The notes under the pieces were generated by a model, which did no database searches, was not told the DNA's origin, and saw only the letters and a list, made by a program, of their open reading frames with translations. Both the position numbers and the translations under genes were made by a program. A DNA stretch of 64,000 nt from Eledone cirrhosa (Eukaryota), in NCBI GenBank assembly GCA_964016885.1, contig OZ024743.1, positions 251,038,001-251,102,000 on the forward strand. The letters run 5' to 3'. Positions 2,453 to 57,990 of the stretch are shown in pieces. Position 1 is the stretch's first letter. Every line of letters starts with the position of its first letter.

Positions 2453-2646
2453 TAGGAACATGTATGACCCCGACGGCAGAGCTCAAGCCGTTTCGACGGC
2501 TATTTCGTCCAGAAATAGCCGTCGAAACGGCTTGAGGTCTGCCGGCGGGGTCATACTTGTGCCTATTACCCACTCTACTACCCTAAGTATTGAGTACTTT
2601 GGTGCGTTATGGTCCATCTGGTTCCTTACCACAATTCATTCGTTAT
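2453..2646 (+). mobile_element. Short PLE pseudo-LTR (pLTR) fragment, family A, with inverted 5' piece forming a hairpin of ~50-bp arms
   Basis: Homologous to 5692-5830, 8140-8195, 8830-8960 and 57795-57990; palindrome centred ~2506-2512; flanked by (TA)n on both sides. Confidence 0.8.
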
Positions 2647-2930
2647 ATATATATATATACACACATATATAAATATATATATATATATATGTGTGTGTGT
2701 GTGTGTGTGTGTGTGTGTGTTTATATATATATATATGTTTATTTATATATATAAATATATATATATATATATATATATATATGTTTATATATATATATAT
2801 ATATATATATATATATATATATATATATATATTTATTTATATATATATATATATATATATATATATATATATATAAATTAATAAAAACAATGAATAAAAA
2901 CAAAGAACACGTTCCCTATACTAAAAAATT

Positions 2931-3064
2931 CATCATTTTACGATCGTTTCTAGGATATATATGTGTGTTGGTATGTATATCATATAGATCTATGTAAAAA
3001 TATTACAAACTATGAGGGGAAATATACATACCTTCACATATATATGCTGTCTTCAGAAATAATG
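2931..3064 (-). ncRNA. Type I hammerhead motif with long (~100 nt) stem II
   Basis: Minus strand: cattattt-CTGAAGA-cagcatatata...tatatatccta-GAAA-cgatcg-TA-aaatgatg; 8-bp stem I (one GU), palindromic ACGATCGT stem III, GUA triplet. Confidence 0.65.
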
Positions 3065-3473
3065 ATATTTGTTTATTGAAAAAAAACAAAAAAGATATAA
3101 TAGGTCTGTTTGGGAACAGGTTTTGAATTGACCAATAGAAAAGTAGTAAGACGTTAAGTTGATAAAATAGTAGTAGTAGAAATTTAATTTAGGGGTGGAG
3201 GAATGCAAACTTAAGTTTTGAATGGAAATAATACTTTGAATGAAAATAATACTTTGGGGATGAAAAGAGGTCAAGCCGGTGAAGGGTACACGAAAATTTG
3301 ATGTTATTGAAGAATAATCTTAATGTTAAAACCGAAGGAGAGTAAATTTTAGGGTAAAGGTATTAGTGAGAAATACCAATCTTATTTAAAACACAAGGAA
3401 TTTAGATCTATAACAAAAAATTAAATTAATTGATAGGTATACTTATTTTATCCCTATAAGAATACCTATAGTT

Positions 3474-4430
3474 AACATATAGTTAACCATACATAATTAG
3501 GTACAAAATTAATGTTAGAAGAAAAAATGTACATAAACATACCAAAATCATCAAACTATCTCTACTACCGGCAGTTTCATTCCGTTTTTGGATATATGCG
3601 ATCTTAGATAAATCGACGAGATTGGAAATCATCAGAAGATAAACTCAATTGAACAAAGATTTCTCTCATAAGATCTCCGCCAGAAACGAATTCAAAATGG
3701 CTAAGAATCGTCACGTGGCTAGTGGTCAAGGCAGAAAGTTTGTGATTGGTGTCTGTCGGCGAGTAGGCTAGCTGCTAGAAAGCGCAGCCAAATACTGCCT
3801 AAAGTTTTACTCAACCTTACGGGGGGAGTATATAAAATTTAAAGGGTATATACACATAAACTAGACAGAGCCATAGATTTATGTATATTTTTGGCAACCA
3901 TTCACGGTGTGGCTCAATGACGAATTAATTAAATAAATAATTAACAATCAGAACAATATATAAAAAATAAGTCCATAGAATCATTAGATAAAATATATAT
4001 AGTATTTCTTCTCCCAATCAGCATAAATCAACCACACAAAAAATCATTTAAACGAGACTATAAGTTTAAAATATACTTATGAAGAAATAATAGGTAAATG
4101 ATACAGCTTATTATTCGCGACTCACAGCTACAGATAGCCTGTAGAAATTGACTAGACATATAGTTAACCATACATAATTATGTACAAATTAAAGTTACAA
4201 GAAAAAATGTACATAAACATACCAAAATCATCAAAATATGTCTACTACCGGCAGTTTCATTCCATTTTTGGATATATCCGATCTTGGATAAATCAACGAG
4301 ATTGGAAATCATCAGACTATTAGTCAAGGCAGAAAGTTTATGTTTGGTAGGCTGGTTGCTAGAAAGCGCAGCCAAATACTGCCTAAAGTTTTACTCAACC
4401 TTACGGGAGTATATAAAATTTAAAGTTTAT
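3474..4430 (-). mobile_element. Partial tandem duplication (period ~680 bp) of a non-coding HHR-bearing pLTR/retrozyme-like unit
   Basis: 3474-3850 is repeated at ~4156-4430 (second copy has an internal deletion); each copy carries a hammerhead core on the minus strand. Confidence 0.7.
3556..3642 (-). ncRNA. Type I hammerhead motif (damaged second copy at ~4238-4320)
   Basis: Minus: ttatctt-CTGATGA-t ttcc...ggaa t-GAAA-ctgccggtag-TA-gagatag; 7-bp stem I with GU pairs, near-palindromic stem III. Confidence 0.7.
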
Positions 4431-4556
4431 ATATATATATATGATTATATATATATATATCGACAGTCGATCGACTTTCGTCAAATCGGACCGAGGGAAC
4501 AATGTTTCCGTTGGTCTTTCCAATTGCTAATACTATCTATCGGTCGCAACTCCAGG

Positions 4557-4680
4557 TAGAAGGAGCAACGTGAAATAAAGTGTCTTGCTCAAGGACATAA
4601 CGCATCGCCTGGTCCAGGAATTGAACTCACAACCTTACGATTGCGAATCCAATTCTCTAACCACTCAGCCACACGACTTC
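4557..4680 (-). mobile_element. tRNA-derived SINE, 5' part
   Basis: Minus strand has A box tggctgagtgg, B box gagttcaattcc and the SINE body motif tccttgagcaagacacttt. Confidence 0.75.
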
Positions 4681-4711
4681 ACATATATATATATATATGT
4701 ATATATATATA

Positions 4712-5243
4712 TATGAAAAACATGGAAAGAAAGAGGAATACTGCGGGCTTGCACATGGGTTACCTATTATAAAATTAGTCCCTCATCAGTGATTTGCCAA
4801 CCATCATTGGTATTTCATCGCATGAAAAATCAGATACCTCAGGTTGGTGCGAGTAATAACTAAAATAAGCTATTGGGACAAGTGAATCGCGTAAAGCGAG
4901 TGAGACAAGTAAACAAGATAGAAGGAAAAGCAAACCGAAGGTAGGAAAACAGCAAGCAACATGATGGTTATCCGGTCAGCATAAGCTGGGTGAATTTCAT
5001 GAGCGGTCAGAAAACAGACCGCCCGCCGTGAATGAGGTGTGAGAAAGAAGGAACCCCACTAATACGAACGGGAGGAAGTGAGAAGGGGAGAAACAGAGAG
5101 TGGGTGAGTGGAAGTGCGAGGAAGAGGTCAGTCGAGAGAAAGTGGAACTGACAGAGGGGGCGAAAGAAGGTGAGAGAACGGGGGAGCAGTAAGAGAGAAA
5201 CAGATAATCGCAGTCGAGGTAAATATGTATGAAAAACATGGGA
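4712..5243. mobile_element. ~515-bp non-coding dispersed repeat with terminal redundancy, related to 49160-49880
   Basis: Clear homology to 49160-49680; tatgaaaaacatgg-like sequence at both ends; inserted in (TA)n. Confidence 0.65.
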
Positions 5244-56076: not shown

Positions 56077-56354
56077 ATAAGTAAATAAAATAAAATAAAA
56101 TAAGATAAATAAATACATACACAAGCACAATAACAACAAGCACATAAACACACACTAGTCACCCAGCAGACACAACACTATACACACTAGTCACACAGCA
56201 CACATAACACTATACACACACGCAAACGCATGCGCAAAGAAGACAAAATAAAATAAGATAAACAAACAAGCAAATAAATAAATAAATAAATATATAGACA
56301 GACTGAATAAAAAATGGCGTAGACATACAACACAACAGGAGGAACAAAGAATAT

Positions 56355-56427
56355 AACACCACTGACGATGTTGCAGATGTGCAACGAAAGATTTATGTAA
56401 ATTATGTAAACTATATATATATGTGTT
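56355..56427 (+). ncRNA. Hammerhead-like motif in the pLTR (mirror copy ~54085-54157 minus; related copy ~58210-58268 minus)
   Basis: CTGACGA-t gttgca gatg tgcaac-GAAA-g...c-TA; stem II perfect, stem I interrupted by (TA)n. Confidence 0.5.
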
Positions 56428-56669
56428 TGTGTCTATATTGTATCTGTATTATTTTTGACCGTCGGTCAGTCAATGGCAACATTGAGGACCGAGTAAGTTA
56501 GATCGCAGATATAAAAGACAGCGAGAAGCGAAAACCAACCAAACAGTGAGTGTGTTCTGTTATTAATTCTGGCAATATTACGCAAATATGACCCTCCCCA
56601 AGTATAACAATATCTGTTTCGACACACGATTTCATATAAAAAACCTCGCTAAACTATATATATATATAT

Positions 56670-57242
56670 AAATGGAATAGAATGAAACGAAATTTCATTT
56701 CTCACTCTTTATATATACATACATGCACATATATATATATATATGCACGTATCGGTTTACCGAACATTTATTATAATGCTCGGTTTGTTTGTTTATAAAC
56801 AAACAGCCCGAATTACGCCGTGCAGTGTTTAAGCAACCACGTCACCTTTTTGTTCAACACTGACACAGGAACGATGTACTAGTTTCAAGCTTATTAGCTA
56901 TCGTCAGCATCGTATACCTTCCTGCCAGATGGTTGAACGTCTGAAAGTATATACTTTCCTCATGCATATTAACGGCTGAGCAGCCTAATTTGCATATCGA
57001 GTGAGTTCAGTCGGCCGGGCACACCGAAAACGATAAATGGAATAGAATGAAACGAAATTTCATTTCTCATTCTTAGTACGTCACTTACTTAAATGTAAGT
57101 ATGCATGTATGTATACGCACATACATATATGTATACAGACGTACAGTAGTATGTATATGTATACATACATGCACACATATATATATGCACGTATCGGTTT
57201 ACCGAACATTTATATTAATGCTCGGTTTGTTTGTTTGTAAAC
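56670..57242 (-). mobile_element. Retrozyme-like element, family C: ~440-nt unit with terminal redundancy
   Basis: gcacgtatcggtttaccgaac at ~56746 and ~57187; aaatggaatagaatgaaacg at ~56670 and ~57035; homologous to 26616-27230. Confidence 0.8.
56871..56913 (-). ncRNA. Minimal type I hammerhead
   Basis: acgatg-CTGACGA-t agct aata agct t-GAAA-ctag-TA-catcgt; compensatory stem I change relative to 26980. Confidence 0.88.
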
Positions 57243-57661
57243 ATATGTATATATATATATATATATATATATATATATATATATATGTATGTATATGTAT
57301 ATATATATATATATATATATATATGTATCTGTATATATATATATATATATATATATATATATATATATATATATATATACATACAGATACATTGTAGGTT
57401 GCTTTAACCCGTCTTTTATTATTCAAAAAACTTCTTGCCAATAAACATTAACCCTTTGTGCGCCATTCATCTATCTGTAGACCAAATAAAGATGGCGTAC
57501 AATGCAACGGGATGACAAGAACGATGGCGAATGAATATTCGAGATAAGCAGTTTCGCCCCGGCCTGTTAGTTCACGCGGGATTCTCTGCTACACCTTTTC
57601 GTAATAATACCGACCAACGTACTGCTGGTCACTCCTTCCTCCAAAAGCCGTAAAAAGCATA

Positions 57662-57770
57662 TCTCTCTCTCTGGCTCTCTCTCTGGCTCTCTCTCTCTCT
57701 CTCTCTCTCTCTCTCTCTCTCTCTCTCTCTCTCTCTCTCTCTCTCTCTCTCTCTCTCTCTCTCTCTCTCT
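57662..57770. repeat. (CT)n microsatellite
   Basis: Direct reading. Confidence 0.97.
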
Positions 57771-57794
57771 TTATATATTTATATATATATATAT

Positions 57795-57990
57795 ATAGGA
57801 ACAAGTAAGACCCCGACGGCTGAGCTCAAGCCGTTTCGACGGCTAATTCTGTACAGAATTAGCCGTCGAAACGGCTTGAGCTCAGCCGTCGGGGTCTTAC
57901 TTGTTCCTATTACCCACTCTACTACCCTAAGTATTGAGTACTTTGGTGCGTTATGGTCCACCTGGTTCCTTACCACATTTCCTTCGTTAT
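57795..57990 (+). mobile_element. Family A pLTR tip with a perfect palindrome (57795-57910, centre ctgtacag)
   Basis: Same architecture as 2453-2646. Confidence 0.85.

What the first reader, a model, noticed from the sequence alone, without database searches (positions are those of the whole stretch)
2453..57990. Rule of two outward-facing 3' ends, one short and one long, suggests priming from both target strands
Seen: family A insertions have one end at ...cctat|(AT)n and the other ~80 nt further at ...cgttat|(AT)n (2453/2646, 8195/5692, 57795/57990). Family B uses ...ttaataaat| and ...attactat| (15436/18097, 28645/32190), and the ORF-linked end is long in one copy and short in the other. 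The same pattern occurs at 53892/56646 and 26287/25825. Element ends finish in AT-like bases matching the target. Known: PLEs have inverted pLTRs and optional tails. Inference: each insertion is made by two target-primed RT events at two fixed AT-microhomology sites downstream of the ribozyme, a twin-priming-like mechanism.
Basis: partly seen in the sequence, partly recalled or inferred. Interest (0 to 1): 0.75.

Follow-up and report, generated by a model that had tools for sequence, protein, structure and literature searches.

The report
Penelope insertions primed from both ends
Back-to-back insertions of Penelope-like jumping genes in this animal genome almost always pair one short end with one long end, and in the main group each end stops a few bases before one of two copies of a small predicted RNA hairpin, which suggests that both cut DNA strands likely start copying the same RNA and makes a long-unexplained insertion shape testable.

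Summary
All seven cited insertions are head-to-head Penelope-like element (PLE) insertions in (AT)n with one short (S) and one long (L) end. In 1.63 Mb of the same genome, 185 of 189 clean outward pairs from 34 families are S+L (44 of 45 in unselected contiguous DNA). Either end can lie on the ORF arm. The layout is published (inverted copy, one-sided tail: PMC3846280, PMC8557442), as are two RT start sites on both target strands in vitro (PMC11167929). Not found in the searched papers: the near-strict pairing, and that in Hydra-clade families (A, B) both S and L lie about 2-5 nt before a copy of one RCTC...GAGY hairpin motif. In 28 of 66 resolved A/B insertions each arm holds sequence the other lacks, which simple fold-back cannot make. 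Best reading (about 0.6, inferred): both nicked strands prime on one sense RNA at two motif-marked sites, and the cDNAs are joined. AT microhomology (mean 3 nt) likely only fine-tunes the site. The A/B ribozyme cores are non-canonical. The scan reported this rule and these hairpins before, on other pieces of this genome and in other genomes.

The parts
2452..2646 (.). Family A (Hydra-clade PLE) mini insertion: S arm pointing left, L arm with 80-nt tail pointing right
5692..8195 (.). Family A insertion: L end at 5692, S end at 8195, inverted arms 5776-6908 / 7060-8192 at 99.8% identity
57795..57990 (.). Family A mini insertion: S end left, L end right; both arms stop 59 nt upstream of S
57916..57939 (+). 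First RCTC...GAGY hairpin motif in the family A tail, 5 nt after the S position (predicted 4-bp stem)
57848..57905 (+). Degenerate hammerhead-like fold of family A (core-like word at 57854); no Rfam hit in the matching stretch of L121
15433..18097 (+). Family B (Hydra-clade PLE) insertion B1: 32-nt inverted S arm, 5'-truncated ORF on +, pLTR, L end
18011..18056 (+). First hairpin motif in the family B tail of B1
28643..32190 (-). Family B insertion B2: main copy on - (ORF 31375-29612 plus an upstream frame) ending at S; inverted arm 31871-32190 ending at L
31764..31779 (-). Second hairpin motif of family B, in front of the ORF start; in read-through copies it follows the L position by 3 nt
32026..32082 (+). 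Hammerhead-like fold of family B with a U4A-type core change relative to published Hydra hammerheads (core at 32033)
53892..56657 (+). Family C (Neptune-like PLE) insertion: 600-nt inverted S arm, truncated ORF 54634-56076 on +, L end at a minor sub-site; no RCTC...GAGY motif
25825..26287 (.). Family D insertion, likely non-autonomous (about 486-nt tandem unit elsewhere): L end left with about 110-nt tail, S end right
643..763 (.).
10992..11574 (.). Further S+L insertion with an internal partial tandem, another family
1..455 (.). Right part (L end at 455) of an S+L insertion that starts about 210 nt before the window

Best explanation
These are head-to-head insertions of endonuclease-containing Penelope-like retrotransposons in (AT)n that pair one short and one long end, likely because both nicked target strands prime reverse transcription on one sense RNA at two fixed sites. 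Shown: discrete S and L ends, near-strict pairing, variable centres, either end on the ORF arm, and a repeated RCTC...GAGY motif 2-5 nt after both S and L in Hydra-clade families. Inferred: the pLTR-ORF junction of the RNA carries two protein-binding hairpins; two RT/EN protomers occupy one each; each takes a 3'-OH from one target strand, settles on 1-5 nt of AT microhomology just 5' of its hairpin and copies towards the RNA 5' end, the L-started one reading through the tail and S region. The two cDNAs stop at random or at the RNA 5' end and are joined blunt or through short overlaps. One RNA has one S and one L site per junction, so the product is S+L.
For: Pairing: 185 of 189; 152 against 4 after removing one discovery event per family; left/right order even, 94 against 91; family A genome-wide 20,813 stops at S against 21,200 read-throughs of 42,013 hits. 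The rule holds in tandem insertions of 20.7 and 16.4 kb and in 3 short tandems. Independent templating: the S arm reaches at least 5 nt further 5' than the L arm in 18 of 52 A and 10 of 14 B insertions, and the L arm lies wholly inside the tail in 5 of 52 and 4 of 14. ORF-linked end L 15, S 11. Centres: 37 of 73 overlap by 1-8 nt, 7 blunt, 18 with 1-8 extra nt. Shared source: A arms share 59 minor variants against 14 expected, maximum 29 in 2000 shuffles. Motif after S in 19 of 37 families against 3% of shuffled tails; second copy after L in families A, B and four others; R:Y covariation Fisher p=0.050 at S and 0.009 pooled; the motif is visible twice before the ORF in published Hydra-1_Ajap and once in Hydra-2_Ajap and Hydra-1_Crog. 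Arm 5' ends pile 54-66 nt upstream of S in A, about 25-32 nt behind a TATA-like box in 3 of 11 families examined. In vitro a Poseidon PLE nicks and extends both strands from two internal sites that match the tail ends (PMC11167929).
Against: No biochemical or RNA data here. Family C obeys the rule (20 of 20) without the motif, so the hairpin is not the universal cause. Stems are only 4-5 bp and the 200-240-nt regions fold no better than shuffles (z -0.42 and +0.74). Covariation was not significant under the first matching rule (p=0.089), the families are related, and the six L-site families were picked by eye. True exceptions exist: 2 SS and 2 LL of 189 and a further LL in B. Arms are not closer to each other than to the best other copy (21 better, 8 equal, 26 worse), so one RNA molecule is not proven, and family B showed no sharing of minor variants. 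Many arms have no partner: 1 hidden partner among 91 unpaired A/B arms. The in vitro PLE showed no site difference between strands and no homology at the start site. Target-site duplications cannot be read in (AT)n.
Confidence: 0.6

Rival explanations
1. Fold-back or self-priming: one cDNA is made, folds back and copies itself (or an antisense RNA self-primes), and the endonuclease then cuts the palindromic DNA intermediate at an AT-rich site, leaving the tail on one side. The motif would be a DNA signal for the endonuclease.
For: Proposed in PMC3846280 (self-priming on an antisense template) and PMC8557442 (tail from EN-mediated resolution); the D. virilis tail was needed for EN cleavage of plasmids (as cited in PMC11167929). 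It explains shared variants between arms and AT-rich ends.
Against: In 28 of 66 A/B insertions the S arm holds upstream sequence absent from the L arm while the L arm holds the tail, and 9 of 66 have no overlap at all; this needs added central deletions. The same motif at the same spacing follows both ends. A palindromic DNA carries both sites on both arms, so it gives no reason for S+L only.
Confidence: 0.17
2. Both strands prime, but on two separate RNA molecules held by one complex, with protein geometry or order of events forcing different sites.
For: Copying the same stretch twice from one RNA needs strand displacement of the first cDNA (inference). Some insertions have arms that differ at a diagnostic base (L018; 2 of the pairs listed). 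Arms are no closer to each other than to the best other copy.
Against: Each RNA would offer both sites, so S+S and L+L should be common. Arms share minor variants far above chance in A and C, though subfamilies active at different times could also give this.
Confidence: 0.13
3. The S+L layout is inherited from a few asymmetric master copies that move as units (MITE-like, or by read-through transcripts), with later loss of the centre.
For: Family A minis have similar sizes of 160-210 nt, and a few share one centre.
Against: Centres differ among most copies, lengths run from 98 nt to 20.7 kb, either arm can carry the ORF, and the rule recurs in 34 families of at least two clades.
Confidence: 0.04
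4. Two independent insertions into one microsatellite, or an assembly artefact.
For: (AT)n tracts collect many insertions; 12 pairs have an inner AT run and 3 of these are L+L.
Against: The 189 clean pairs have no (AT)9 run inside; independent events would pair at random; short-read contigs show the same two ends.
Confidence: 0.02

Closest known systems
Inverted 5'-truncated copy plus one-sided tail of EN+ Penelope-like elements (PMC3846280; PMC8557442 Fig. 2)
   Same: [quoted passage not shown]
   Different: Here the pairing is counted and near-strict (185 of 189), tails are mostly 45-165 nt rather than 30-40, and the published explanations are self-priming or EN resolution, not two primed starts.
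Poseidon element of Anolis (PAc) in vitro (PMC11167929)
   Same: Two internal RT start sites that match the tail ends, both target strands nicked and extended, hammerhead cleavage not needed, predicted dimer.
   Different: The paper does not link the two sites to the two ends of one insertion, reports no homology at the start site, and places the starts inside an AC-rich stem-loop in the ORF. Here the sites lie before the ORF, show 1-5 nt AT microhomology and each precedes its own hairpin motif.
Hydra clade of C-terminal-EN PLEs (PMC8557442, section 11 and supplements)
   Same: Families A and B have RWR/RWK, DKT (seen in A), YRDDG, CxCX5C, no CCHH, and (TA)n targets.
   Different: Hammerhead cores of A and B are altered; the twin RCTC...GAGY motif is not mentioned in the passages read, although visible in the published consensus sequences.
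L1 twin priming (Ostertag and Kazazian 2001; seen only as a reference title in PMC3649969, mechanism recalled)
   Same: Two primers from opposite target strands on one RNA, an inversion, and joining at short microhomology.
   Different: In L1 it is a side reaction with a poly(A) primer and a variable internal primer that copy separate stretches. Here both starts are fixed and internal, the copies usually overlap, and it appears to be the normal route.

Membership tests
EN+ Penelope-like elements (C-terminal EN) | Single ORF with PLE-type RT and C-terminal GIY-YIG endonuclease | tested here: met
   Open 786-codon frame in L121 (A); B is 55% identical; motifs match Hydra proteins in the PMC8557442 supplement. 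Pfam gave no hit for the B and C proteins, so this rests on motifs and alignment.
EN+ Penelope-like elements (C-terminal EN) | Partial tandems forming pLTRs | tested here: met
   L121; arrays with periods of 3542 and 3531 nt.
EN+ Penelope-like elements (C-terminal EN) | Inverted 5'-truncated copy and optional tail | tested here: met
   tails longer than the published 30-40 nt.
EN+ Penelope-like elements (C-terminal EN) | Canonical hammerhead ribozyme in the pLTR | tested here: inconclusive
   No Rfam hammerhead hit for A or B; B has hammerhead topology with a changed core and A is more degenerate; a canonical CUGAUGA core is present in five other families and a core-like word in C. Cleavage untested.
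EN+ Penelope-like elements (C-terminal EN) | Target-site duplication | not testable with these tools
   All insertions studied lie in (AT)n.
Hydra clade (families A, B) | RWK and DKT motifs, CxCX5C linker, no CCHH in the EN | tested here: met
   A: RWR, DKT, CxCX5C, one Cys between the GIY and YIG positions. B: RWR in the upstream frame, CxCX5C, no CCHH; DKT not checked separately. Definition.
Hydra clade (families A, B) | Placement in the Hydra clade of the RT tree | not tested
   No tree with reference elements was built.
Neptune clade (family C) | CX2-5CxxC linker and two Cys between GIY and YIG | tested here: met
   Seen in the C translation; Neptune against Nematis was not resolved by a tree, so 'Neptune-like'.
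L1-type twin priming | Second primer anneals at variable internal microhomology and the two cDNAs copy non-overlapping RNA | tested here: not met
   Starts are fixed and only 9 of 66 A/B insertions are non-overlapping. Works like it, is not it. Definition recalled.
L1-type twin priming | Junction joined through short microhomology | tested here: inconclusive
   37 of 73 centres overlap by 1-8 nt; no chance level was computed, and alignment ends can overrun by a few bases.

The most novel reading that the evidence does not exclude
Two-ended priming is the normal integration route of EN+ PLEs, not a side reaction. In the Hydra clade two tandem RCUC...GAGY RNA hairpins each position one RT/EN protomer of a dimer, so that one RNA is copied twice, from both ends of a double-strand cut, starting a fixed 2-5 nt before each hairpin. 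This would be a retrotransposition route in which both element-target junctions are made by RNA-templated priming.
Probability: 0.4. Interest if true: 0.75.

Novelty: new variant of a known kind. Interest (0 to 1): 0.55.

Why it matters
How PLEs make their tandem and inverted insertions is stated as an open problem (PMC8557442 Discussion; PMC11167929 leaves the later steps unvalidated). A near-strict S+L rule constrains models sharply, and a pair of short cis motifs beside the two ends gives direct handles: mutate, move or swap one hairpin and predict which end moves. PLE RTs are the sister group of telomerase, so an RNA element that fixes the start of copying at a set distance bears on how template positioning evolved. 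For annotation, the rule gives true element boundaries for tens of thousands of insertions in this genome.

Tried and rejected
The repeat finder on the raw window was swamped by (AT)n. A DNA search of the genome returned nothing because common words are skipped. Joint S/L counts for the whole genome could not be obtained, so pairing rests on samples. No RNA holder was listed, so the transcription start is not tested. A homodimer prediction for residues 1-495 of the family A protein gave no verdict (score 0.00, alignment not used) and is not used either way. Looking for very short hidden partners at the far side of unpaired arms found 1 among 91. Whole-region folding of the junction was no better than shuffles. 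Hammerhead cleavage as the cause of the arm 5' ends was rejected: in B the predicted site is about 24 nt upstream of S while arms end mostly 37-74 nt upstream. A TATA-like box behind the pile-up was seen in only 3 of 11 families (A and two others), an Inr-like word in A and B, with no chance level computed (consensus words recalled). No counterpart of the twin motif was found in family C. The tblastn clade labels used a wrong frame for A and were redone. Rows dropped before the main count: 17 of 54 end clusters (low-complexity, minisatellite or unclear), 12 pairs with an inner AT run (9 S+L, 3 L+L), and all unpaired arms.
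Full report
Observation. The window lies on contig C4 of a 3.0-Gb animal genome and is rich in (AT)n. A masked self-comparison and the raw sequence show all seven cited insertions as head-to-head arms bounded by (AT)n. A family-based classifier calls each S+L and finds three more such pairs in or across the window edge, 10 of 10. The long end of family C is at about 56657, not 56646.

Identity. A full-length family A copy (L121) has an open frame of 786 codons between pLTRs, preceded by a partial tandem and an inverted arm; its outer ends are L and S. 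A and B proteins are 55% identical and carry RWR, YRDDG and CxCX5C and lack CCHH; DKT was seen in A. This matches the Hydra clade as defined in section 11 of PMC8557442 and its supplement sequences. C has a CX5CxxC linker and two Cys between GIY and YIG, so it is Neptune-like. Pfam gave no hit for B or C, and no tree was built. Exact core patterns match 42,013 (A), 26,681 (B), 11,971 (C) and 1,886 (D) places, with 0 for reversed controls.

Test of the rule. First, the first 100 genome hits of patterns ending just after S were tallied without curation: 33 of 35 outward pairs in A, 14 of 17 in B and 17 of 18 in C are S+L, 64 of 70 in all (three C pairs are copies of one tandem duplication). Three of the six exceptions dissolve on inspection: an internal tandem junction (L121), a long arm mislabelled by what appears to be a 1-nt deletion (inferred from offsets), and an S end in a decayed AT tract. 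Second, in 1.63 Mb in 128 segments, a screen without families found 224 clean inverted events: 198 asymmetric and 26 symmetric, 19 of the latter from one minisatellite. Clustering gave 54 end clusters, of which 37 were used. Classifying each arm on its own gave 185 S+L, 2 S+S and 2 L+L clean pairs in 34 families; 12 pairs with an inner AT run were set aside (9 S+L, 3 L+L). Caveats: families were discovered from asymmetric events (152 against 4 after removing one per family), and 30 loci were chosen on the A long end. The 664 kb of unselected contiguous DNA gave 44 of 45. Genome-wide, A stops at S in 20,813 of 42,013 hits. Tandem insertions of 20.7 and 16.4 kb and three short tandems also end L+S; one further true L+L and one doubtful L+L were seen in B.

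Are the arms made separately? In 66 A/B insertions with a resolved centre, the S arm reaches at least 5 nt further 5' than the L arm in 28 (18 of 52 A, 10 of 14 B), and the L arm lies wholly within the tail in 9. There each arm holds sequence that the other lacks, which one fold-back cannot produce without later deletion. The ORF-linked end is L in 15 and S in 11. Of 73 resolved centres among 96 A/B/C pairs, 37 overlap by 1-8 nt, 7 are blunt, 18 have 1-8 extra bases and 11 are larger. The arms of one insertion share minor variants above chance in A (59 against a mean of 14, maximum 29; 35 pairs) and C (9 against 3.4, maximum 7; 20 pairs) but not in B (0 against 0.6; 13 pairs). Arms beat the median other copy in 50 of 55 but the best other copy in only 21. 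This fits a shared source but does not prove one RNA molecule, and gene conversion is not excluded.

What fixes the two sites? Microhomology with (AT)n at S averages 3.07 nt over 28 families against 1.18 for random junctions; 16 of 28 have 3 nt or more against 12% (many families rest on one copy). Read-through copies show what follows L: in A 306 exact copies and in B 9 of 20 loci continue, after 3 nt of microhomology and 3 more bases, into GCTC...GAGC. The same kind of motif follows S by about 2-5 nt. It occurs after S in 19 of 37 families against 3% of shuffled tails, and after L in six families of 18 with candidate read-throughs, many of which were false. The outer pair covaries: A:T 8, G:C 5, A:C 3, G:T 1 at S (p=0.050); pooled with the six L sites p=0.009; an earlier, looser rule gave p=0.089. 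The published consensus of sea-cucumber Hydra-1_Ajap has two copies before its ORF, Hydra-2_Ajap one after its hammerhead, and crustacean Hydra-1_Crog shows GCCC...GGGC, a compensatory form (read by eye). Short local folds form the stems for both B sites and A-L, but for A-S an alternative hairpin wins, and the whole region folds no better than shuffles. Family C follows the rule with no such motif.

Ribozyme and 5' ends. Published Hydra hammerheads read ctgaagat/ctgatgat ... tgaa. B keeps the topology with one core change, A is more degenerate, and Rfam detects neither. Arm 5' ends pile 54-66 nt upstream of S in A and 64-65 in another family, not at the predicted cut; short-read contig depth also steps up there and falls after L. 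A TATA-like box lies about 25-32 nt before the pile in 3 of 11 families. Run-off at a promoter-defined RNA 5' end is an inference; no RNA run was listed.

Mechanism. The simplest account is that one sense RNA offers one S and one L site at its pLTR-ORF junction, that the two nicked strands prime one at each, and that the cDNAs are joined (0.6). Fold-back with endonuclease trimming (0.17), two RNAs (0.13), inheritance from masters (0.04) and independent insertions or artefact (0.02) rank lower, for the reasons given in those fields.

Literature. PMC3846280 (passages) describes a tail on one of the inverted pLTRs and proposes self-priming on an antisense template. PMC8557442 (passages, section 11, supplement parts 2 and 53 of 59) says the tail is often at one end only and ascribes it to EN resolution. 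PMC11167929 (parts 1-2 of 4, the main text up to early Methods; supplement text searched without hits, figures not held) shows two internal starts and extension of both strands. The retrozyme preprint 10.64898/2026.07.22.740005 (passages; supplements closed) had no mention of tails or priming. PMC3649969 gave only the reference title for L1 twin priming; its mechanism is recalled. Searches found no paper stating strict pairing, twin priming or twin hairpins for PLEs; older subscription papers were not read. Earlier notes of this scan, seen after my reading was written down, report the same rule and hairpins elsewhere; they are not independent support.

Verdict. A real and general rule on top of a known architecture, with a specific, testable mechanism: new variant of a known kind, interest 0.55.

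Noticed in passing
window 8300-8957 and 58025-58350: Unpaired arms: an older family A copy with an L end only, and a family C copy with an S end only that runs into a diverged B-like fragment (58344-58468).
   Followed up: partly
window 31780-31870: In B2 about 90 nt between the inverted arm and the second hairpin differ from the tail seen there in read-through copies; filler, intron or another subfamily, unexplained.
   Followed up: no
window 38088-38884: Element with canonical hammerhead cores in inverted copies (Rfam HH9, E 3e-6, below gathering score), next to an assembly gap; its family has many read-through copies and only 2 clean S+L pairs.
   Followed up: partly
window 19028-21683: Another PLE ORF (GIY-YIG hit) split by a 1.2-kb AT-rich microsatellite.
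   Followed up: no
window 21843-23711 and 60914-63535: Long open frames of two LINE-type reverse transcriptases (RVT_1; the second with a PHD-like finger).
   Followed up: no
window 26617-27128 and 56757-57092: Repeated element with near-symmetric inverted ends; left out of the PLE count as unclear, possibly a MITE.
   Followed up: partly
window 59614-60513; 46826-47740; 9573-10909: An 80-nt tandem array of about 11 copies at 98% identity, a diverged tandem repeat, and a 592-nt direct duplication.
   Followed up: no
L313 1308-2031; L315 1310-1674; L317-L322: Family A tandems with units of 257 nt, 199 nt and about 3.5 kb (up to five units); these suggest repeated copying of a circular RNA or template jumps.
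   Followed up: partly
L097 / L163: In family C the main L position coincides with an ATG of the read-through copy, and the family uses two or three L sub-sites.
   Followed up: partly
window 11088-11159: tRNA-like match inside a PLE-type insertion (Rfam tRNA, 39 bits).
   Followed up: no
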